Part shown: piece after piece, positions 1 through 8,892 of the stretch
Layout: every line of letters starts with the position of its first letter
How positions within the stretch are numbered: position 1 is the first letter of the stretch
IMG/VR virus record: IMGVR_UViG_2778261527_000002
Direction: 5' to 3' (one strand)
DNA: 8,892 nt
From: a virus
Lineage: Duplodnaviria; Heunggongvirae; Uroviricota; Caudoviricetes
Position numbers and translations under genes: made by a program
Notes under the pieces: generated by a model
What the model was told of the DNA's origin: nothing
The model's database searches: none
The model's input: only the letters and a program-made list of their open reading frames with translations

Positions 1-1
1 G

Positions 2-67
2 TACGCCAGAGTGGGCGCGAGACGTTACGACAACTGGAAGCTAAAACTGGGGCAACAAGATATCTGA
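2..67 (+). CDS. 3' end of an upstream gene running off the left edge (…YARVGARRYDNWKLKLGQQDI*); product unknown
   Basis: Frame is open from the window start to TGA at 65-67, which overlaps the next ATG (TGATG), suggesting translational coupling. Only 21 codons visible. Confidence 0.3.
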   Translation, partial: YARVGARRYDNWKLKLGQQDI

Positions 68-366
68 TGAGCGTTCTTGCCAGAGAGCTGGTTGCCAGTG
101 GCGATGTATACAACTCTGGTTACGGGTTATTCCCGTCTGAACAGGCTCGTAAGGACTGGCAAAATGCCCGCAAAAAACTCTCAAGGGCAAAGCTGAAGAA
201 AAAAACATCTGTGGTTGATCCGGACCTTATCTGGTCGTTACCAGACGGAGAAATACGCCGCTATGACAGGCGTCTGAACATAATCTGTCGCGAGTGCCGG
301 AATAGTGAAGTTATGCAGCGTGTACTGGCTTTCTATCAGGGGAATTTTCAGGAGGCGGCGCAGTGA
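67..366 (+). CDS. hypothetical protein, 99 aa, basic, one CxxC motif (ICRECRN)
   Basis: Complete ORF in the track; its start overlaps the upstream stop and its stop overlaps the next start (GTGA at 363-366). No family recognised. Confidence 0.5.
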   Translation: MSVLARELVASGDVYNSGYGLFPSEQARKDWQNARKKLSRAKLKKKTSVVDPDLIWSLPDGEIRRYDRRLNIICRECRNSEVMQRVLAFYQGNFQEAAQ

Positions 367-563
367 GCAGGATTGACTACCAGGAATTGGCTGCTGCTAA
401 CGCTTTCCTAGCTGATGTACGGGCGGTGGCGTTTAACGACCTTTGCGCGGCGTTTGCCAGGCACGCAAAAGTTGCAGGACTGGATGATGCCGATACCGTA
501 ACGCTTAAGGAAGTGACAGAAGCATTGTTGCATTGTGCGGAACAGATTCGCGCGCCTGAATAA
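363..563 (+). CDS. hypothetical protein, 66 aa, Ala-rich, probable GTG start
   Basis: ORF in the track; GTG start overlaps the stop of the preceding ORF; followed by an AT-rich intergenic region. Confidence 0.4.
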   Translation: MSRIDYQELAAANAFLADVRAVAFNDLCAAFARHAKVAGLDDADTVTLKEVTEALLHCAEQIRAPE

Positions 564-658
564 TTAAATTTAGTGTTGTAAATAAAATTTAATCCTTAAC
601 CGGAGGGATTTCTGCACCCTCAGAACATCAGGAGGCCGCCCGAAAGGGCGGTAATGAA

Positions 659-841
659 ATGCGAAAGTTCAGAATAATTATTGAAACGGGAATAGCTGGT
701 GGAGATTTTGAGGATGTATTCGAAGTGGATGATGGTGCGACACCAGATGAAATACAGGACGAAGCAAAAGAAATTTTCTTTAACTACTGCAATTACTCAT
801 ATCACGAAATAAAAGATGAGGAGGAAGAACAAAATGGCTGA
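659..841 (+). CDS. small highly acidic protein, 60 aa (about 18 Asp/Glu, C-terminal EEEE)
   Basis: ORF in the track; AT-rich region and two hairpins upstream (603-621, 636-651); its last codons overlap the next gene's start (ATGGCTGA at 834-841). Confidence 0.5.
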   Translation: MRKFRIIIETGIAGGDFEDVFEVDDGATPDEIQDEAKEIFFNYCNYSYHEIKDEEEEQNG

Positions 842-1010
842 TTTTGGTTCAACTAAATACAACGTCAGTTTTGAAGAATGGCATGAACTGTTAATGGACT
901 ATGCAGAGTTACGCGGTGGAAGTGCCGCTGATGCTGAAGCATGGCGTGATGACTACGAAGCAGGAAAAACTCCGGTCGAAGCATATTGTGATGAGTGGGG
1001 CGATGAATGA
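834..1010 (+). CDS. small highly acidic, aromatic-rich protein, 58 aa (MADFGSTKYNVSFEEWHELL…)
   Basis: AGGAGG at 819-824 sits 9 nt upstream of ATG 834, so 834 is preferred over the track's 816 start. Stop overlaps the next start (ATGA at 1007-1010). Confidence 0.55.
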   Translation: MADFGSTKYNVSFEEWHELLMDYAELRGGSAADAEAWRDDYEAGKTPVEAYCDEWGDE

Positions 1011-1522
1011 GCGAGATTAATTATCAGGAAGGACATGAAACGGCAGGGCAGGCAAAACCAGTTGCATGGCGATATCGCTACGTGAAAAAAGGCATTACGG
1101 ACTCACAGGGGGAGCCGTGGGTTGGTGACTGGAAATATGTACCGACAAAAGAGGATTGCAACGACAGGCCGAGCTATGAAATTCAGGCGTTATTCACTGC
1201 CCCGCCTGTGCCACTGACATCAGAAGGACTGGTTAAAGCCGTGCGCTTTTATGAACAGGTAAAGCGTGAGAATCCACCAGTCGAAACAGGAGCATGGAAA
1301 GATGCTGTTGATTGGGTACTCAAAGAGGCCTGCAGTGCTGTCATTCTGGGTAAAGCCGACAACCCACCAGCTTCCGGCAATCAGGTTAGCGAATTAACAA
1401 TGTGGGTTAAACGACTGGTCAGCCAACTGAAAAAAGCCAAGCCGGACTGCAAATTACCGGAGAAGGCGATGGACTACCTGAAGCGAAACGGACTGATAAG
1501 CGTGGAGGATGTTTTACGGTGA
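1007..1522 (+). CDS. hypothetical protein, 171 aa
   Basis: Complete ORF, translationally coupled to the upstream acidic ORF by an ATGA overlap; last gene of the five-ORF operon. No family recognised. Confidence 0.6.
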   Translation: MSEINYQEGHETAGQAKPVAWRYRYVKKGITDSQGEPWVGDWKYVPTKEDCNDRPSYEIQALFTAPPVPLTSEGLVKAVRFYEQVKRENPPVETGAWKDAVDWVLKEACSAVILGKADNPPASGNQVSELTMWVKRLVSQLKKAKPDCKLPEKAMDYLKRNGLISVEDVLR

Positions 1523-1661
1523 GATAGTAAATGCATGTAATGAGACGGGGGGTGTGAGGGGAGGCTTCATCTGGATAGATCTTGCACCGTTCATATGTTA
1601 TAAAAACAATTCCTACTGTTAAATCGTTGTTTGTTTTAGTTGCTATATTTAAGGAGTGAAT

Positions 1662-1919
1662 ATGCAGTTAATTGTTGATTACCCAGATCATAACATTTAT
1701 TCATCTTTTGTGGATGCGGATGCTGAACTTCGAGAGTTAAATGGTGGGGCAGTAGTTGTAATAACGGTAAAAATACCTCTTACTAGCACATCGGAACAGT
1801 TGTTTAATAAATACACTTGCGGGGAAAGTCTTCGTATTAAATTGAGGAATGGCGATGAATGGAAAATGTATTTCGTTATGCTTGATGGAGGGCGCTATAT
1901 ATTTTCCTCGCACCTGTGA
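1662..1919 (+). CDS. hypothetical protein, 85 aa, in an AT-rich island
   Basis: Strong SD AAGGAG at 1651-1656 with a 5-nt spacer to ATG 1662 (preferred over GTG 1656 in the track). Local composition is visibly AT-rich compared with flanking DNA. Confidence 0.55.
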   Translation: MQLIVDYPDHNIYSSFVDADAELRELNGGAVVVITVKIPLTSTSEQLFNKYTCGESLRIKLRNGDEWKMYFVMLDGGRYIFSSHL

Positions 1920-1991
1920 TAAAAATGATGAGCCGAGACTGTATTTACGGGACGCTGAGAGAATACCATAGAAAAGCTTATCTAACTTAAG

Positions 1992-1997
1992 TAGAAT
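1992..1997 (+). promoter_or_regulatory. candidate -10 element (TAGAAT) for the hok/mok mRNA
   Basis: Lies about 6-8 nt upstream of the predicted hok mRNA 5' end (GCGGGTGCTTGAGG at 2003), which resembles the recalled R1 hok mRNA 5' end. No convincing -35 found. Confidence 0.3.
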
Positions 1998-2002
1998 TGC
2001 TG

Positions 2003-2016
2003 CGGGTGCTTGAGGC
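2003..2016 (+). promoter_or_regulatory. hok mRNA 5' fold-back (fbi-like) element, complementary to 2378..2392
   Basis: GCGGGTGCTTGAGG pairs with CCTCAACGCACCCGC in the 3' UTR (8 bp + 6 bp with a 1-nt bulge). Adjacent 5' hairpin CTATCTGCC/GGCAGATAG at 2016-2051. Confidence 0.5.
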
Positions 2017-2049
2017 TATCTGCCTCAGGCATGAACACCAAAGGCAGAT

Positions 2050-2123
2050 AGAGAAAAGCCCCAGTTAACATTACGCGTCCTGCAAGACGCTTAACATTAA
2101 TCTGAGGCTCAATCTATGAACGG
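2050..2123 (-). ncRNA. sok: Sok-like antisense RNA (antitoxin) of the hok/sok locus; ends approximate
   Basis: Minus-strand promoter with -35 TTGCCT (complement of 2153-2158), exact 17-nt spacer and -10 TAACCT (complement of 2130-2135), matching the recalled R1 sok promoter layout (TTGCGC-17-TATCCT). Predicted transcript overlaps the mok SD and start and contains a ~15-bp imperfect hairpin (2064-2099) followed by a U-rich tract. Confidence 0.45.
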
Positions 2124-2328
2124 CAAATCTAGGTTAGCCTCTTACGTGCCGAAAGGCAAGGAGAAGCAGGCTATGAAGCAGCAAAAGGCGATGTTAATCG
2201 CCCTGATCGTCATCTGTTTAACCGTCATAGTGACGGCACTGGTAACGAGGAAAGACCTCTGCGAGGTACGAATCCGAACCGGCCAGACGGAGGTCGCTGT
2301 CTTCACAGTCTACGAACCTGAGGAGTAA
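2116..2328 (+). CDS. mok: Mok-like reading frame (modulator of killing), 70 aa, in frame with and N-terminally extending hok
   Basis: ORF in the track starting 19 codons upstream of the hok ATG. An in-frame mok resembles chromosomal mokC-type loci as recalled, whereas R1 mok is out of frame. Confidence 0.45.
   Translation: MNGKSRLASYVPKGKEKQAMKQQKAMLIALIVICLTVIVTALVTRKDLCEVRIRTGQTEVAVFTVYEPEE
2130..2158 (-). promoter_or_regulatory. candidate sok promoter (-35 TTGCCT, 17-nt spacer, -10 TAACCT)
   Basis: Hexamers read directly from the reverse complement; position inside the mok 5' region matches the hok/sok paradigm. Confidence 0.45.
2173..2328 (+). CDS. hok: Hok/Gef-family type I toxin, 51 aa (MKQQKAMLIALIVICLTVIVTALVTRKDLCEVRIRTGQTEVAVFTVYEPEE)
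   Basis: Single transmembrane helix plus the conserved RKDLCEV…EVAVF…YE motif; near-identical to recalled HokD(RelF)/HokC(Gef). SD AAGGAGAAG lies upstream of ATG 2173. Confidence 0.85.
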   Translation: MKQQKAMLIALIVICLTVIVTALVTRKDLCEVRIRTGQTEVAVFTVYEPEE

Positions 2329-2335
2329 GAGACTT

Positions 2336-2357
2336 GGCGAGGGAGAAATCCCTCGCC
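2336..2357 (+). other. perfect 9-bp stem with GAAA tetraloop (GGCGAGGGA-GAAA-TCCCTCGCC) in the hok 3' UTR
   Basis: Exact inverted repeat read from the sequence, 8 nt after the hok stop codon; likely an mRNA-stabilising or folding element. Confidence 0.5.
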
Positions 2358-2377
2358 GCCTCTGATGTGTCAGGCAT

Positions 2378-2392
2378 CCTCAACGCACCCGC
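2378..2392 (+). promoter_or_regulatory. hok mRNA 3' fold-back element, complementary to the 5' end (2003..2016)
   Basis: Long-range complementarity, the hallmark of hok-family mRNAs. Confidence 0.5.
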
Positions 2393-2397
2393 ACTTA

Positions 2398-2417
2398 ACC
2401 CGCTTCGGCGTTTTTTC
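2398..2417 (+). terminator. candidate intrinsic terminator of the hok transcript (short CGC/GCG stem, UUCG loop, T6)
   Basis: ACCCGCTTCGGCG followed by TTTTTT. The stem is only 3 bp, so it is weak on its own; the same motif recurs in stronger form at 3063-3088. Confidence 0.4.
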
Positions 2418-2471
2418 CGTTGATTAACTCTAGTTATTAGAGAACCGAACTTTTATTGATGGGGCAGGGAG

Positions 2472-2864
2472 ATGAAGAAACTTGTTTTAGTCGCAGGTGT
2501 AATGATTGCAACAGTAATGTTGGGAGGGTGTGCAGCAAAGGTCGATCCAGCGTTGAAAGCAGAAGCAATGAAGCCACTAACATGTAATGATGAAAAGCAA
2601 TGTGACTTTTATTGGAAACGAGCGCAATTCTGGTTGGCTAATAATTCCTCATGGAAAATTCAAACGGCGACAGACACGCTAATTTCCACTTATAATCCCT
2701 CTCCAAATAGTCCATTCCTCGCTTATCAAGTGAGTAAAATGCCAAATGAAGATGGATCCTCAAGAATTTTCATCAAGCCTTTTTGCGATAATATGTTTGG
2801 CTGTCAACCAAACCCCTATCAGGCAGTTGTTTCCTTTAAAAACTTCGTTAAAACAGGGCAGTAG
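2472..2864 (+). CDS. predicted lipoprotein, 130 aa, Cys-rich mature domain, function unknown
   Basis: N-terminal MKKLVLVAGVMIATVMLGGC looks like a signal peptide with an L-G-G-C lipobox. GGGAG SD upstream of ATG 2472. Five further Cys in the mature part suggest periplasmic disulfides. Confidence 0.7.
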   Translation: MKKLVLVAGVMIATVMLGGCAAKVDPALKAEAMKPLTCNDEKQCDFYWKRAQFWLANNSSWKIQTATDTLISTYNPSPNSPFLAYQVSKMPNEDGSSRIFIKPFCDNMFGCQPNPYQAVVSFKNFVKTGQ

Positions 2865-3063
2865 TGTATAGCTTGGACGATAAATTATTAGTGAAAACGC
2901 CGTAAACCCTCACCCAATGTGGACTAAGCCTATCAAACATGACTGTGATGATTAGTCCGTAGTTGTTGCCTATGAAATCTGGATTGAGTCAGGGTTTAAT
3001 CCAATAATTATTCTATCGTTCCTTTACAAGTCCGGTATATTACTTTCAGTTTGTTTTAGCATA

Positions 3064-3088
3064 CCCGCTTCGGCGGGTTTTGTTTTTT
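3064..3088 (+). terminator. rho-independent terminator (CCCGC-TTCG-GCGGG stem-loop plus T-rich tract)
   Basis: 5-bp GC stem with UUCG tetraloop followed by TTTTGTTTTTT, at the end of a ~200-bp ORF-free stretch. Confidence 0.65.
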
Positions 3089-3160
3089 CCTGGCATTCTG
3101 GTTTACAATTCGCACGCCAGCCTGAACAACTGGCACCTGCTGCGCCAGCAGAGACAACCG

Positions 3161-3439
3161 ATGGCGCACGATACCAAATTACACAATTCTAATGATTCTG
3201 CCGTCTTTGCCAGCAGGCGCGGACGGCGTTTTCACGTATTCAAATCAGACTGGTTCCAGCATCCTCCATGCACTGAAGAGCAGGCGGAATGGATAATTCA
3301 GTGTTACCGCAGGCGCGGATACGAGGTTAAGAAAGCCCTCAGCCTCGATTATCGTCACTGGATAATCTATGTCAGGCTCCCTTATTCCGAACGCCCACCG
3401 CGCCCATCCCGCACATACCAGCAACGGATCTGGAGGTAA
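3161..3439 (+). CDS. hypothetical protein, about 92 aa ([16 protein letters not shown]…); may be a junction artefact
   Basis: The track ORF (3080..3439) begins inside the terminator T-run, so ATG 3161 is the more plausible start. No clear SD. Its 3' end overlaps the start of the J-derived ORF in another frame. Confidence 0.3.
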
Positions 3440-5174
3440 CGTGCGGATATTACTTCGACCTGTTCTGGTACCGGAGAAAGAAGCCATCGTGGATAACGGG
3501 GCGCACTTTGACGGTGACCAGAGCGGCACGGTGAATGGTGTCACGCCGCCAGCAGTTCAGCACCTGACCGCAGAAGTCACCGCAGACAGCGGGGAATACC
3601 AGGTGCTGGCGCGCTGGGACACGCCGAAGGTGGTGAAGGGGGTGAGCTTTATGCTTCGCCTGACCGTGGCAGCGGACGACGGCAGTGAGCGGTTGGTCAG
3701 CACGGCCCGGACGACGGAAACCACATATCGCTTCACGCAGCTGGCGCTGGGAAATTACAGGCTGACAGTCCGGGCGGTAAATGCATGGGGACAGCAGGGC
3801 GATCCGGCATCGGTATTGTTCCGGATCGCCGCACCGGCAGCGCCGTCGCGGATTGAGCTGACGCCGGGCTATTTTCAGATAACCGCCACGCCGCATCTTG
3901 CGGTTTATGATCCGACGGTACAGTTTGAGTTCTGGTTCTCGGAAAAGCGGATTGCGGATATCAGGCAGGTTGAAACCACAGCCCGCTATCTTGGTACGGC
4001 GCTGTACTGGATAGCCGCCAGTATCAATATCAAACCGGGCCATGATTATTACTTTTATATCCGCAGTGTGAACACCGTAGGCAAATCGGCATTTGTGGAG
4101 GCCGTCGGTCGGGCGAGCGATGATGCATCCGGCTATCTGGATTTTTTCAAAGGCGAGATAGGGAAAACCCATCTGGCTCAGGAGCTGTGGACGCAGATTG
4201 ATAACGGTCAGCTTGCGCCTGACCTGGCTGAAATCAGGACGTCCATTACGGATGTCAGCAATGAAATCACGCAGACCGTCAATAAGAAACTGGAAGACCA
4301 GAGTGCGGCAATTCAGCAGATACAGAAGGTTCAGGTTGATACAAATAATAACCTGAACAGCATGTGGGCTGTGAAGCTGCAGCAGATGCAGGACGGACGC
4401 CTTTATATCGCGGGTATTGGTGCCGGTATTGAGAACACCCCTGACGGCATGCAGAGTCAGGTGCTGCTGGCGGCGGACAGGATTGCGATGGTTAATCCTG
4501 CGAATGGCAACACAAAACCGATGTTTGTTGGTCAGGGTGATCAGATATTCATGAACGACGTGTTCCTGAAACGCCTGACGGCCCCCACCATTACCAGCGG
4601 TGGAAATCCACCGGCATTTTCCCTGACACCGGACGGGCGACTGACGGCGAAAAATGCGGATATCAGTGGCAGTGTGAATGCGAACGCCGGGACGCTCAAC
4701 AATGTCACGATAAATGAAAACTGTCGGGTTCTGGGAAAACTGTCTGCGAACCAGATTGAAGGCGATCTCGTTAAAACAGTGGGCAAAGCTTTCCCCCGGG
4801 ACTCCCGTGCACCGGAGCGGTGGCCATCAGGGACCATTACCGTCAGGGTTTATGACGATCAGCCGTTTGACCGGCAGATTGTTATTCCCGCGGTGGCGTT
4901 TCGTGGCGCTAAACATGAGCGGGAGAATAACGATATTTATTCGTCATGCCGCCTGATAGTGAAGAAAAACGGTGCTGAAATTTATAACCGTACCGCGCTG
5001 GATAATACGCTGGTTTATACAGGTGTTATTGATATGCCTGCTGGTCGCGGTCACATGACGCTGGAGTTTTCGGTATCAGCGTGGCTGGTAAATGACTGGT
5101 ATCCCACAGCCAGTATCAGTGATTTGCTGGTTGTGGTGATGAAGAAATCCACCGCAGGCATCAGTATCAGCTGA
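3369..5174 (+). pseudogene. J: 5'-truncated tail-tip host-specificity protein J (about the C-terminal half, with the receptor-binding end); J similarity starts near 3465
   Basis: From [16 protein letters not shown] onward the translation tracks the recalled C-terminal half of lambda J (e.g. [32 protein letters not shown]). The first ~33 codons are unrelated, the frame closes at a TAA at 3363-3365, and there is no SD at ATG 3369. Whether the fragment is expressed is unknown. Confidence 0.75.
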
Positions 5175-5193
5175 ATTTTATAACCCATATACG

Positions 5194-5219
5194 GGCGCCA
5201 GAAATGGCGCCTTTTTTAT
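5194..5219 (+). terminator. rho-independent terminator downstream of J (GGCGCCA-GAAA-TGGCGCC plus T6)
   Basis: Perfect 7-bp GC-rich stem, GAAA loop, followed by TTTTTTATT. Confidence 0.75.
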
Positions 5220-5241
5220 TGCAGAAAAGCGAGAGGTAATT

Positions 5242-5841
5242 ATGCGTAAAGTTTGTGCAGCCATTTTGTCCGCAGCCATCTGTCTGGCCGTATCCGGTGC
5301 GCCTGCATGGGCGTCTGAGCATCAGTCCACGCTGAGCGCGGGGTATCTTCATGCCCGGACGAACGTTCCCGGCAGTGATGATCTGAACGGGATTAACGTG
5401 AAATACCGTTATGAGTTTACGGACACACTGGGGATGGTGACGTCGTTCAGCTATGCAGGAGACAAGAATCGCCAGATTACCCGTTACAGCGATACCCGCT
5501 GGCATGAAGATTCCGTTCGTAACCGCTGGTTCAGCGTAATGGCGGGGCCGTCTGTGCGCGTGAATGAATGGTTCAGCGCGTATGCGATGGCGGGTGTGGC
5601 TTACAGCCGTGTGTCGACTTTCTCCGGGGATTATCTCCGCGTAACTGACAACAAGGGGAAAAAGCACGATGTGCTGACCGGAAGTGATGACGGTCGCCAC
5701 AGCAACACGTCTCTGGCGTGGGGAGCTGGCGTGCAGTTTAACCCGACCGAATCCGTGGCCATTGATGTCGCTTATGAAGGCTCCGGCAGTGGTGACTGGC
5801 GCACTGACGGGTTCATCGTGGGTGTTGGTTATAAATTCTGA
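5242..5841 (+). CDS. lom: Lom outer-membrane protein (Ail/Lom/OmpX family beta-barrel), 199 aa
   Basis: Signal peptide [25 protein letters not shown]-terminal aromatic residue (…GVGYKF), and a translation matching recalled lambda Lom. Sits between J and stf as in lambda. Confidence 0.9.
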
Positions 5842-5867
5842 TTAGCCAGGTAACACAGTGTTATGAC

Positions 5868-5895
5868 AGCCCGCCGGTTCAGGCGGGCTTTTTTG
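5868..5895 (+). terminator. rho-independent terminator downstream of lom (AGCCCGCC-GGTTCA-GGCGGGCT plus T6)
   Basis: Perfect 8-bp stem followed by TTTTTTG. Confidence 0.75.
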
Positions 5896-5905
5896 TGGGG
5901 TGAAT

Positions 5906-8892
5906 ATGGCAGTAAAAATTTCAGGTGTACTGAAAGACGGCACAGGAAAACCGGTACAGAACTGCACAATCCAGCTGAAAGCAAAACGTAACAGTACCAC
6001 GGTGGTGGTGAACACGCTGGCATCTGAAAATCCGGATGAAGCCGGGCGTTACAGTATGGACGTTGAGTACGGTCAGTACAGCGTTATTCTGTTGGTGGAA
6101 GGATTCCCGCCGTCACATGCCGGGACCATCACAGTGTATGAAGATTCCCGACCCGGTACGCTGAATGATTTTCTCGGTGCCATGACGGAGGATGATGCCC
6201 GTCCGGAGGCACTGCGCCGCTTTGAACTGATGGTGGAAGAGGTGGCGCGTAACGCGTCCGCAGTGGCGCAGAACACAGCAGCCGCGAAGAAGTCAGCCAG
6301 CGATGCCGGCACATCAGCCCGTGAGGCGGCAACCCGTGCGACTGATGCTGCAGGCTCAGCACGTGCAGCCAGCACGTCAGCCGGACAGGCCGCGTCGTCG
6401 GCTCAGTCAGCGTCTTCCAGCGCAGGAACGGCATCAACAAAGGCCACTGAAGCATCAAAAAGTGCTGCCGCCGCAGAGTCTTCAAAAAGCGCGGCAGCTA
6501 CCAGTGCCAGTGCCGCGAAAACGTCAGAAACGAATGCTGCAGCGTCACAACAATCAGCAGCCACTTCTGCATCCACCGCGACGACGAAAGCGTCAGAAGC
6601 TGCCACCTCAGCCCGGGATGCGGCGGCTTCAAAAGAGGCGGCAAAATCATCAGAAACGAGCGCAGCCTCGAGCGCCAGTAGTGCAGCCTCCTCGGCAATG
6701 GCGGCAGGCAATTCCGCGAAGGCGGCCAAAACGTCTGAGACAAACGCTAAGTCCTCTGAAACGGCAGCAGAACAGAGTGCCTCCGCAGCAGCAGGCTCAA
6801 AAACAGCGGCTGCATTATCTGCCAGTGCCGCGTCAACAAGTGCCGGGCAGGCCTCAGCCAGTGCCACCGCCGCCGGAAAATCGGCAGAAAGCGCCGCATC
6901 GTCCGCTTCAACAGCCACAACGAAGGCTGGCGAAGCCACTGAACAGGCCAGCGCAGCAGCGAGGTCTGCTTCCGCAGCGAAGACATCCGAGACGAACGCG
7001 AAAGCGTCGGAAACCAGCGCAGAATCCTCAAAAACGGCTGCCGCATCGTCCGCCAGTTCGGCGGCGTCATCGGCATCATCTGCGTCTGCTTCAAAAGATG
7101 AGGCGACCAGACAGGCATCAGCAGCGAAAGGCAGCGCCACGACGGCATCCACGAAGGCGACAGAGGCAGCTGGTAGTGCGACGGCGGCAGCTCAGAGCAA
7201 AAGTACGGCGGAATCCGCGGCAACGCGCGCCGAGACAGCAGCAAAACGGGCAGAGGATATTGCATCCGCCGTGGCGCTTGAGGATGCGAGCACGACGAAA
7301 AAGGGGATAGTACAGCTCAGCAGTGCGACCAACAGCACTTCCGAGTCACTGGCGGCAACGCCAAAGGCAGTAAAATCAGCCTATGACAATGCAGAGAAAC
7401 GTCTGCAGAAAGACCAGAACGGCGCTGATATACCCGATAAGGGACGCTTCCTGAACAACATTAACGCGGTCAGTAAAACAGACTTTGCTGATAAGCGTGG
7501 TATGCGTTATGTGCGGGTTAACGCTCCTGCAGGTGCAATATCTGGAAGATATTACCCTGTTGTTGTTATGCGTTCTGCTGGCTCAGTAAGCGAACTGGCA
7601 TCAAGGGTCATTATCACCACGGCAACGCGAACCGCAGGCGATCCGATGAATAACTGCGAGTTTAACGGGTTTGTTATGCCTGGTGGCTGGACTGACAGGG
7701 GGCGTTATGCTTATGGAATGTTCTGGCAATATCAAAACAATGAACGAGCCATCCACTCAATAATGATGAGTAATAAGGGCGATGATTTGCGCTCTGTGTT
7801 CTATGTTGATGGTGCTGCTTTCCCTGTTTTTGCGTTTATTGAAGATGGCCTGTCAATATCCGCACCTGGTGCTGATCTCGTTGTTAATGATACGACCTAT
7901 AAGTTTGGGGCAACAAATCCGGCGACTGAATGTATCGCGGCGGACGTTATCCTTGATTTTAAGAGTGGCCGTGGTTTTTATGAGTCCCATTCGTTAATCG
8001 TTAACGATAACTTGTCGTGCAAAAAACTTTTTGCCACAGACGAAATTGTAGCGCGTGGTGGTAATCAGATTCGAATGATAGGTGGGGAGTATGGTGCATT
8101 ATGGCGTAATGATGGCGCTAAAACTTACCTGCTGCTTACCAATCAAGGTGATGTTTATGGTGGCTGGAATACATTAAGACCGTTTGCTATTGATAACGCA
8201 ACCGGCGAACTGGTTATTGGAACCAAACTGTCCGCAAGTCTGAACGGTAATGCATTAACAGCAACAAAGCTGCAAACGCCAAGACTGGTTTCTGGTGTTG
8301 AGTTTGATGGTTCCAAAGATATTACTTTAACCGCCGCGCATGTGGCTGCTTTTGCCAGAAGGGCAACGGATACATATGCCGATGCGGATGGTGGCGTTCC
8401 CTGGAATGCCGAATCAGGCGCTTATAATGTCACCCGCTCTGGCGACAGCTATATTCTGGTTAACTTCTATACCGGAGTCGGAAGTTGCCGGACCCTGCAG
8501 ATGAAGGCGCATTACAGAAATGGTGGTCTGTTCTACCGTTCTTCAAGAGATGGCTATGGTTTTGAGGAAGACTGGGCAGAAGTTTATACCTCGAAAAATC
8601 TTCCACCAGAAAGCTACCCAGTCGGCGCACCAATCCCGTGGCCATCAGATACCGTTCCGTCTGGTTATGCCCTGATGCAGGGGCAGACTTTTGACAAATC
8701 TGCCTACCCGAAACTTGCTGCCGCTTATCCGTCAGGCGTGATCCCTGATTTGCGTGGCTGGACGATTAAGGGCAAGCCCGCCAGTGGTCGTGCCGTATTG
8801 TCTCAGGAACAGGATGGCATTAAATCGCATACCCACAGCGCCAGCGCATCCAGTACGGATTTGGGGACGAAAACCACATCGTCGTTTGATTA
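5906..8892 (+). CDS. stf: side tail fibre protein Stf, 3'-partial (about 995 codons, runs off the window end)
   Basis: N-terminus [31 protein letters not shown]… and C-terminal segment [76 protein letters not shown]… match recalled lambda Stf. Hand translation found no stop from 5906 to 8890. Confidence 0.9.
6250..7300 (+). repeat. low-complexity Ala/Ser/Thr-rich coding repeats (recurring [17 protein letters not shown]-type units) in the Stf shaft
   Basis: GC-rich imperfect tandem repetition visible in DNA and protein; it produces long spurious ORFs in other frames on both strands. Confidence 0.7.

What the first reader, a model, noticed from the sequence alone, without database searches (positions are those of the whole stretch)
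659..1010. Two adjacent, translationally coupled, very acidic mini-proteins: candidate DNA-mimic anti-defence proteins
ORFs 659..841 (60 aa) and 834..1010 (58 aa) each have roughly 28-30% Asp/Glu, few basic residues (estimated net charge about -12 to -13) and many aromatics (F/Y/W). That composition is typical of phage and plasmid DNA-mimic proteins such as Ocr/ArdA-like anti-restriction factors and some anti-CRISPRs. They lie in a prophage moron region inside a tightly coupled operon. I recognise no named family, so they may be undescribed.
Basis: inference. Interest (0 to 1): 0.6.

Follow-up and report, generated by a model that had tools for sequence, protein, structure and literature searches.

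The report
Two acidic early prophage mini-proteins
Two tiny, very acidic genes in an E. coli lambda-like prophage are real, conserved and widespread in phages and plasmids, and they look like decoy inhibitors of DNA-binding host proteins, but nothing yet shows what they target.

Summary
ORF1 (659-841, 60 aa, net charge -13) and ORF2 (834-1010, 58 aa, net -12) are real genes that overlap by 8 nt. They are under strong purifying selection (dN/dS 0.02-0.17).

They are not family-less. ORF1 belongs to Pfam DUF7167 and PHROG 1997. ORF2 matches PHROG 519.

They are not in a moron region. They sit in the delayed-early accessory region between the replication genes and Q. In a Stx2a phage the same cassette sits in the exo-xis region.

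The pair occurs in 1748 of 5426 complete E. coli genomes. Elsewhere the two families travel separately. DUF7167 is found in Enterococcus, rV5-like and Klebsiella phages and in Pseudomonas plasmids. The ORF2 family is found in Ackermannviridae, P2-like, Mu-like and T7-like phages and on more than 400 IncI2 plasmids.

Acidity is conserved across both families; the aromatic residues form the hydrophobic cores. The AlphaFold models are a three-helix bundle (ORF2) and a beta-beta-alpha-beta fold with an acidic tail (ORF1). Neither resembles any known anti-defence protein above noise, and I found no literature on either.

The DNA-mimic/inhibitor idea remains plausible but untested. These are ordinary-looking, uncharacterised accessory genes and reasonable candidates for experiment.

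The parts
1..366 (+). 3' part of the DUF977 (YdaW/LygF-like, 'Ren-like') gene. It is the last conserved gene of the replication module; its true start lies upstream of the window.
   Evidence: Pfam DUF977, E 1.9e-17. RefSeq CDS 13941-14366 of L001 corresponds to window -59..366.
363..563 (+). 66-aa hypothetical gene (phrog_27745) with a GTG start that overlaps the DUF977 stop. Mildly acidic (net -5).
630..658 (+). Leader of ORF1. It holds AGGAGG (630-635), then a 7-bp G+C stem with a GAAA loop (635-641 paired with 646-652), then ATG at 659. If the hairpin forms, the Shine-Dalgarno lies about 6 nt from the start codon instead of 23. That reading is inference.
   Evidence: Sequence and RNA fold (z-score only -1.8). 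The intergenic stretch 560-660 is conserved in phages that lack ORF1 and ORF2.
659..841 (+). ORF1, a DUF7167-family mini-protein. 60 aa, net charge -13. Predicted beta(2-9)-beta(16-23)-alpha(29-40)-beta(46-51) fold with a disordered acidic tail (52-60).
   Evidence: Pfam PF23768, 48.5 bits against a cut-off of 24.4, and phrog_1997, E 7.9e-29. AlphaFold pLDDT 76.5. Family conservation. dN/dS 0.02-0.11.
834..1010 (+). ORF2, an acidic three-helix mini-protein. 58 aa, net charge -12. Helices at 13-27, 34-42 and 47-55. Core residues F13, W16, L20, Y23, W37, Y41, Y51 and W55. A conserved G-K-T-P turn.
   Evidence: phrog_519, E 4.5e-23; no Pfam family. AlphaFold pLDDT 88.5. 65 cluster representatives in 1.8 billion proteins. 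Conservation. dN/dS 0.03-0.17.
1007..1522 (+). ORF3, 171 aa (phrog_660), annotated 'ead/Ea22-like' in related phages. It is coupled to ORF2 by an ATGA overlap. The N-terminus MSEINYQ... is conserved, while the rest varies from 28 to 270 aa between prophages.

Best explanation
ORF1 and ORF2 are two unrelated, dispensable early accessory proteins of mobile elements.

Expression (inferred). After induction or infection they are made from the delayed-early transcript. That is the rightward operon here and the leftward exo-xis operon in Stx phages. Translational coupling should give roughly equal amounts of each.

Proposed mechanism (inferred). Each folds into a minimal rigid domain whose exposed surface is almost entirely carboxylate. 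Each acts stoichiometrically by sitting on the basic, nucleic-acid-binding surface of a host or rival-element protein and blocking it. That would make them electrostatic decoys in the manner of Ocr, ArdA, T7 gp5.9, T7 Gp2 or T4 Arn.

Candidate targets, in my order of preference:
1. a restriction- or BREX-type defence enzyme;
2. RecBCD;
3. an H-NS-type silencer.

What is shown: the genes, their selection, their folds at model level, the conserved acidity, the early accessory position and the distribution across mobile elements. What is inferred: any binding, any target and any phenotype. The two proteins probably act independently, not as a complex.
For: - Net charge is about -0.2 per residue, and the acidic positions are conserved across families that have diverged to 30-40% identity. 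In ORF2 they lie on the solvent faces of all three helices. In ORF1 they lie in the beta2-alpha loop, the helix and the tail.
- Strong purifying selection.
- Always in early, non-essential gene blocks: after O/P/DUF977 in lambdoid prophages; in exo-xis next to xis-int; directly after gpA in P2-like prophages, beside DNA methylases; in the early region of a Mu-like phage; and between DNA polymerase and exonuclease in T7-like phiKDA1. From my own knowledge, that last position is where T7 keeps gp5.5, gp5.7 and gp5.9.
- The cassette is optional. Phage 666R9 has the same leader joined directly to an ORF3-like gene.
- Wide host range. DUF7167 occurs in Enterococcus, E. coli, Klebsiella and Pseudomonas elements. 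ORF2 relatives occur in 198 phage records and 554 plasmids, 516 of them conjugative. This fits targets that are themselves conserved or mobile.
- No catalytic or DNA-binding family signature, and no match to defence-system models.
Against: - No homology and no convincing fold similarity to any known DNA mimic or anti-defence protein.
- No known anti-defence gene is a recurrent neighbour.
- On IncI2 plasmids the ORF2 homologue sits beside repA in a CaiF/GrlA-DUF1187-ORF2-SPFH-NfeD block. I could not show that this is the leading region, which is where plasmid anti-defence genes usually sit.
- DUF7167 has a sharply conserved polar patch (E9, T10, C44, N45, Y46). That points to a specific interface, not generic charge mimicry.
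- High acidity alone is a weak predictor of function.
Confidence: 0.35

Rival explanations
1. They modulate phage development or host physiology (the lysis-lysogeny balance, induction efficiency, host survival), like the small proteins of the lambda/Stx exo-xis region. They would do this by binding a host regulator, not a defence system.
For: In the Stx2a phage ArgO145 the identical ORF1-ORF2-Ea22-like cassette lies in the exo-xis region. ORF2 relatives in Enterobacter directly follow Ead_Ea22 genes next to xis-int. Exo-xis genes are reported to alter lysogenisation and induction (PMC3824215, PMC6213356, PMC5575149, PMC10834534).
Against: No sequence similarity to lambda Orf60a, Orf61, Orf63, Ea8.5 or Ea22. 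Both families are also common in strictly virulent phages (Ackermannviridae, rV5-like, Herelleviridae, T7-like) and on plasmids, none of which makes a lysogeny decision.
Confidence: 0.2
2. They are accessory factors of the element's own DNA replication or recombination machinery. For example, they could be acidic adaptors that bind an exonuclease, an SSB or a replisome component, much as acidic SSB tails do.
For: DUF7167 genes overlap an exonuclease gene in Klebsiella phage VLCpiS11a and in Enterococcus phage MDA2. An ORF2 relative directly follows an Rv2179c-like exonuclease. ORF2 relatives sit right after P2 gpA, beside IncI2 repA and after the phiKDA1 DNA polymerase. ORF1 carries a disordered, compositionally conserved acidic C-terminal tail.
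Against: The neighbouring enzyme differs from context to context, and no single partner family recurs. Early operons place most accessory genes near replication genes anyway. The cassette is dispensable between otherwise similar prophages.
Confidence: 0.2
3. ORF1 and ORF2 work as an obligate two-subunit complex, and their translational coupling reflects that.
For: The 8-nt overlap is present in at least 74 of 80 E. coli prophage loci in IMG/VR. The pair occurs in 1748 of 5426 complete genomes.
Against: Outside E. coli lambdoid phages the two families do not co-occur. ORF2 follows DUF1187 on IncI2 plasmids (with the same ATGGCTGA overlap), Ead_Ea22 in Enterobacter and gpA in P2-like phages. DUF7167 is followed by unrelated genes in Klebsiella and Serratia. 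Both proteins are strongly negative, which argues against direct pairing. A profile comparison shows no relationship.
Confidence: 0.08
4. They are chance ORFs or decaying pseudogenes with no function.
For: The window comes from a defective prophage remnant.
Against: dN/dS is 0.02-0.17. The families span distant phages, with conserved cores and confident models.
Confidence: 0.01

Closest known systems
T7 Ocr (gp0.3) and ArdA, the classic DNA-mimic anti-restriction proteins
   Same: Very high density of Asp/Glu (about 28-30% of residues, net about -0.2 per residue). Encoded by phages and conjugative plasmids. Expressed early. No enzymatic motifs.
   Different: No sequence or profile similarity, and neither appears among the top structural matches. 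From established knowledge, Ocr and ArdA are elongated dimers of 117-166 aa that copy the shape of 24-42 bp of bent DNA. ORF1 and ORF2 are compact domains of about 45-50 residues. Ocr is the first gene to enter the cell, whereas these genes are delayed-early.
T7 gp5.9 (RecBCD inhibitor), gp5.5 (H-NS inhibitor) and gp5.7
   Same: About 50-100 aa and acidic. They lie between the DNA polymerase and exonuclease genes, the same position the ORF2 relative occupies in T7-like phiKDA1 (the T7 gene map is from established knowledge).
   Different: No detectable homology. From my recollection, not checked here, gp5.9 is a coiled-coil dimer, not a three-helix bundle.
T7 Gp2 (RNA polymerase inhibitor)
Lambda/Stx exo-xis small proteins (Orf60a/DUF1317, Orf61, Orf63/DUF1382, Ea8.5, Ea22)
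   Same: The same genomic niche in Stx phages. Small, early, non-essential and poorly understood. ORF3 shares the Ea22-type N-terminus.
   Different: No sequence similarity, and the Pfam families differ. ORF1 and ORF2 also occur in virulent phages and plasmids.
Small acidic anti-CRISPRs (AcrIIA4, AcrIF2)
   Same: Compact acidic proteins under 100 aa that mimic DNA, encoded in accessory regions of mobile elements.

Membership tests
Pfam DUF7167 (PF23768), for ORF1 | Full-length match to the family HMM above the gathering score | tested here: met
   48.5 bits against a cut-off of 24.4, E 9.1e-13, residues 2-53 on profile positions 1-60. RefSeq names the identical protein 'DUF7167 family protein'.
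PHROG 1997, for ORF1 | Full-length profile match | tested here: met
   E 7.9e-29, residues 1-57 on profile positions 1-57. The family has no assigned function.
PHROG 519, for ORF2 | Profile match over the whole family profile | tested here: inconclusive
   E 4.5e-23, but only to profile positions 76-137 of 143. True relatives are stand-alone proteins of 48-65 aa. At least one longer sequence is a frameshift fusion with DUF1187 (P0141).
Any Pfam or NCBIfam family, for ORF2 | HMM match for ORF2 or its relatives | tested here: not met
   No Pfam hit for ORF2, and none shared by more than one of its 40 aligned relatives. No NCBIfam hit.
Ocr / ArdA anti-restriction families | Sequence or profile similarity to Ocr or ArdA | tested here: not met
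DNA-mimic proteins (functional class) | High, conserved density of surface carboxylates | tested here: met
   Net -13 and -12. 13-20 columns are at least 60% acidic across each family and lie at non-core positions of the predicted helices and loops.
DNA-mimic proteins (functional class) | Carboxylate geometry that reproduces the phosphate backbone, and competitive binding to a DNA-binding protein | not testable with these tools
No complex prediction or binding assay was possible.
Anti-CRISPR loci | Adjacent aca-type helix-turn-helix regulator gene | tested here: not met
   The downstream gene is always the Ea22-like 'MSEINYQ...' protein and the upstream gene is a 66-aa hypothetical. There is no HTH neighbour.
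Prophage morons | Own promoter and terminator, giving a transcription unit independent of the phage operons | tested here: not met
   No promoter-like site on the + strand upstream of ORF1, and no terminator-like site anywhere in 300-2500. Counts are at or below the shuffled expectation. The genes are embedded in a chain of overlapping early genes. Consensus scans are a weak test.
T7 Gp2-like RNA polymerase inhibitors | Gp2 fold plus sequence relationship | tested here: inconclusive
Known anti-phage defence systems (PADLOC) | Match to any defence-system component model | tested here: not met
   No hits for ORF1, ORF2, ORF3 or their neighbours.

The most novel reading that the evidence does not exclude
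DUF7167 and the ORF2 family are two new, broad-host-range families of nucleic-acid-mimic inhibitors of bacterial immunity or DNA-end processing (restriction/BREX or RecBCD). They are carried by about a third of E. coli genomes, by mcr-1-type IncI2 plasmids and by Ackermannviridae and rV5-like phages.
Probability: 0.2. Interest if true: 0.7.

Novelty: new member of a known kind. Interest (0 to 1): 0.4.

Why it matters
If either protein disables a defence or repair enzyme, it would add a new, very small and very widespread anti-defence family. About a third of sequenced E. coli carry the pair. The ORF2 family also rides on the IncI2 plasmids that spread colistin resistance, and it occurs in Ackermannviridae phages. 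From my own knowledge, those phages are candidates for phage therapy. Such a protein would therefore bear on plasmid spread and on phage host range. At 45-50 structured residues it would also be an attractive scaffold for inhibitor design. If neither protein inhibits anything, they stay ordinary members of the large pool of uncharacterised early phage genes.

Tried and rejected
- Sequence and profile searches of both proteins and both family alignments against Pfam, NCBIfam, PHROGs, PADLOC and all PDB sequences gave only DUF7167, phrog_1997 and phrog_519. None has a function.
- Hits of the ORF2 query to very large proteins (988-6207 aa) in the representative search are repeat proteins matched by composition. 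I rejected them after reading two of them.
- I tested homology to the lambda exo-xis proteins and rejected it.
- I tested whether ORF1 and ORF2 are paralogues and rejected it (hhalign probability 0.1%).
- Literature searches by family name, accession and peptide string, plus the supplements of one accessory-gene screen, found nothing.
- Guilt by association: gene neighbourhoods in 15-20 diverse contexts showed no recurrent known anti-defence neighbour.
- A viral-contig scan with the broad ORF2 alignment failed for lack of a conserved stretch. The narrower scan returned only E. coli prophages with ORF2 98-100% identical to the query. It was useful for cassette linkage but not for distant contexts.
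- I looked for an independent promoter or terminator (the moron model) and found none.

Full report
**What is at the coordinates**

The window's left 3.4 kb is 100% identical to a lambdoid prophage of E. coli 2009C-3133. In that intact prophage the gene order is: cI-like repressor, cro-like regulator, YdaT, replisome organiser, DUF977, a 66-aa hypothetical, ORF1, ORF2, ORF3, a hypothetical, hokD, a lipoprotein, a hypothetical, DUF968, RusA and Q.

ORF1 (659-841) and ORF2 (834-1010) therefore lie in the delayed-early 'nin-like' stretch of the rightward operon. This is not a late moron region. Consensus scans find no promoter before ORF1 and no terminator in 300-2500.

| | length | D+E | net charge | F/Y/W |
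|---|---|---|---|---|
| ORF1 | 60 aa | 30.0% | -13 | 13.3% |
| ORF2 | 58 aa | 27.6% | -12 | 15.5% |

ORF1 and ORF2 overlap by ATGGCTGA, and ORF2 and ORF3 overlap by ATGA. A GAGGAGG site 9 nt before position 834 supports that start over the in-frame ATG at 816. RefSeq annotates the same CDSs.

ORF1's own AGGAGG (630-635) lies 23 nt from its ATG. A 7-bp G+C hairpin with a GAAA loop (635-652) sits between them. If the hairpin forms, it would bring the two elements to normal spacing. This is inference, and the fold z-score is only -1.8.

**Are they real and unusual?**

Yes. dN/dS between diverged alleles is 0.02-0.17.

In about 238 kb of fetched phage and plasmid DNA, only 12 of 974 unique 45-100 aa ORFs are as acidic. 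Most of those 12 are members of these same two families.

The pair is found in 1748 of 5426 complete E. coli genomes at roughly 90% identity or better.

**Families**

- ORF1 is a full-length member of Pfam DUF7167 and PHROG 1997.
- ORF2 has no Pfam or NCBIfam family. It matches the C-terminal half of PHROG 519.
- An exhaustive HMMER scan of 1.8 billion cluster representatives found 65 relatives of ORF2. Excluding fragments, gene-call extensions and the repeat proteins below, they are stand-alone proteins of 48-65 aa.
- The few hits in giant proteins are repeat proteins matched by composition.
- The two families are unrelated to each other.

**Structure**

*ORF2.* The model is confident (pLDDT 88.5). 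It is a three-helix bundle with helices at 13-27, 34-42 and 47-55. The invariant or near-invariant residues are F13, W16, L20, W37, Y41, G44 and P47. Positions 23, 51 and 55 are always hydrophobic. So the 'many aromatics' are the core of the fold. Thirteen or so columns are at least 60% acidic and fall on the non-core faces of all three helices.

*ORF1.* The model is moderately confident (pLDDT 76.5). It is beta-beta-alpha-beta with a disordered acidic tail. Conserved features are:
- a basic N-terminus (R2, K3, R5);
- an acidic loop (24-26);
- an acidic helix face;
- a polar patch E9/T10/C44/N45/Y46, which looks like a specific interface.

*Family-wide acidity.* Net charge is conserved: median -14 for the 50 DUF7167 members and -10 for the 40 ORF2 relatives.

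**Comparison with known proteins**

- No solved structure is related by sequence or by profile.
- Foldseek against viral models finds only uncharacterised proteins from Erwinia, Dickeya and Pseudomonas phages.
- PADLOC finds nothing.
- There is no similarity to the lambda exo-xis proteins.
- I found no paper on either family.

**Distribution and context**

*DUF7167 (ORF1 family)* is found in:
- 114 phage records, including Enterococcus Herelleviridae, rV5/phAPEC8-like phages and a Klebsiella Guernseyvirinae phage. In two cases the gene overlaps an exonuclease gene.
- Klebsiella and Serratia prophages.
- The Pseudomonas plasmid pWW53, beside a PRTRC cluster.

*The ORF2 family* is found in:
- 198 phage records, mainly Ackermannviridae of Salmonella, Klebsiella and Escherichia, plus T7-like phiKDA1, where it lies between the DNA polymerase and the exonuclease.
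- P2-like prophages, directly after gpA.
- The early region of a Mu-like phage.
- 554 plasmids. More than 400 of them carry an allele 80-90% identical to ORF2; those listed are about 60-kb plasmids, and the one I inspected is IncI2. There it overlaps a DUF1187 gene by the same ATGGCTGA, in a block next to repA.

*Linkage.* In E. coli prophages the ORF1-ORF2 pair is fixed, in at least 74 of 80 IMG/VR loci. It is always followed by an Ea22-like gene whose N-terminus (MSEINYQ) is conserved and whose remainder varies from 28 to 270 aa.

The same cassette sits in the leftward exo-xis region of the Stx2a phage ArgO145. It is absent from phage 666R9, where the conserved leader joins straight to an ORF3-like gene.

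The pair is therefore an optional cassette. Outside E. coli the two genes are independent of each other.

**Interpretation**

*Best explanation (confidence 0.35).* The most economical reading is that each protein is a stoichiometric, charge-driven inhibitor of a nucleic-acid-binding protein of the host or of a competing element. Anti-defence is the most attractive subset of this, at about 0.2. The reading rests on class resemblance and context only.

*Rivals.*
- Developmental modulators of the exo-xis type (0.2). This is weakened by the families' presence in virulent phages and plasmids.
- Accessory factors of the element's own replication or recombination machinery (0.2). This is suggested by the repeated exonuclease and replication neighbours and by ORF1's acidic tail. 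It is weakened by the lack of any constant partner.
- An obligate ORF1-ORF2 complex is unlikely.
- Spurious ORFs are excluded.

**Verdict**

The functional interpretation can be neither confirmed nor refuted with these tools. Its side claims (moron region, no named family) are wrong.

These are catalogued but uncharacterised accessory genes. They are ordinary in kind, unusually widespread, and a reasonable but unproven anti-defence candidate.

Noticed in passing
window 3441-3480 (junction 3468-3475): The window comes from a prophage remnant. Positions 1-3475 and 3468-8892 both match one intact prophage of strain 2009C-3133, where they lie about 23 kb apart. The junction is an 8-bp microhomology, GTACCGGA. 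The deletion removes the segment from DUF968 through Q, the lysis genes and the head and tail genes. It fuses the DUF968 start codon (GTG at 3441) in frame to the C-terminal part of tail-tip protein J. No complete genome in the collection has this exact deletion.
   Followed up: partly
window 2004-2328: A complete hok/sok type I toxin-antitoxin locus. The Rfam sok RNA lies at 2004-2178 (111.7 bits). HokD lies at 2173-2328, within a mok-like reading frame that starts at 2116.
   Followed up: partly
window 1007-1522, and loci L029-L108: ORF3-type genes keep a conserved N-terminus (MSEINYQEGHETAGQAK...) while their length and C-termini vary widely, from 28 to 270 aa. This suggests that recombination breakpoints fall inside this Ea22-like gene and use the conserved 5' end as a linker.
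   Followed up: partly
window 834-841, and L008 9001-9008: The last two codons of the gene upstream of ORF2 (GGC TGA) lie inside the start of ORF2 (ATGGCTGA). This holds both after DUF7167 in prophages and after the unrelated DUF1187 on IncI2 plasmids. ORF2 therefore seems to carry its coupling signal with it when it moves.
   Followed up: partly
window 560-1100 against PP818812.1: A record named 'Actinobacillus phage vB_Apl-pPE4' is 99.1% identical to this E. coli prophage region. The stated host looks doubtful. The same doubt applies to an 'Enterococcus phage Efm 3-10' record, which carries an ORF2 relative scoring identically to those of Salmonella Ackermannviridae phages.
   Followed up: no
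window 5905-8892 (notably 6073-7338): The stf-type tail-fibre gene starts at 5905 and runs off the window. Its Ala/Ser-rich low-complexity stretch produces several long overlapping ORFs in other frames and on the other strand (for example 6303-7310 on + and 6403-7152 on -). These are almost certainly not genes. Tandem Repeats Finder reports no tandem DNA repeat.
   Followed up: partly
window 2472-2864: A 130-aa predicted lipoprotein (signal peptide ending LGGC) matches phrog_16082 and, weakly, a Cor superinfection-exclusion family. It may be a surface-exclusion moron sitting next to hok/sok.
   Followed up: no
window 600-1050: G+C content drops to about 41-42% over ORF1 and ORF2, against about 50% in the flanks. 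This is consistent with a mosaic insertion and with the GAA/GAT-rich coding.
   Followed up: no
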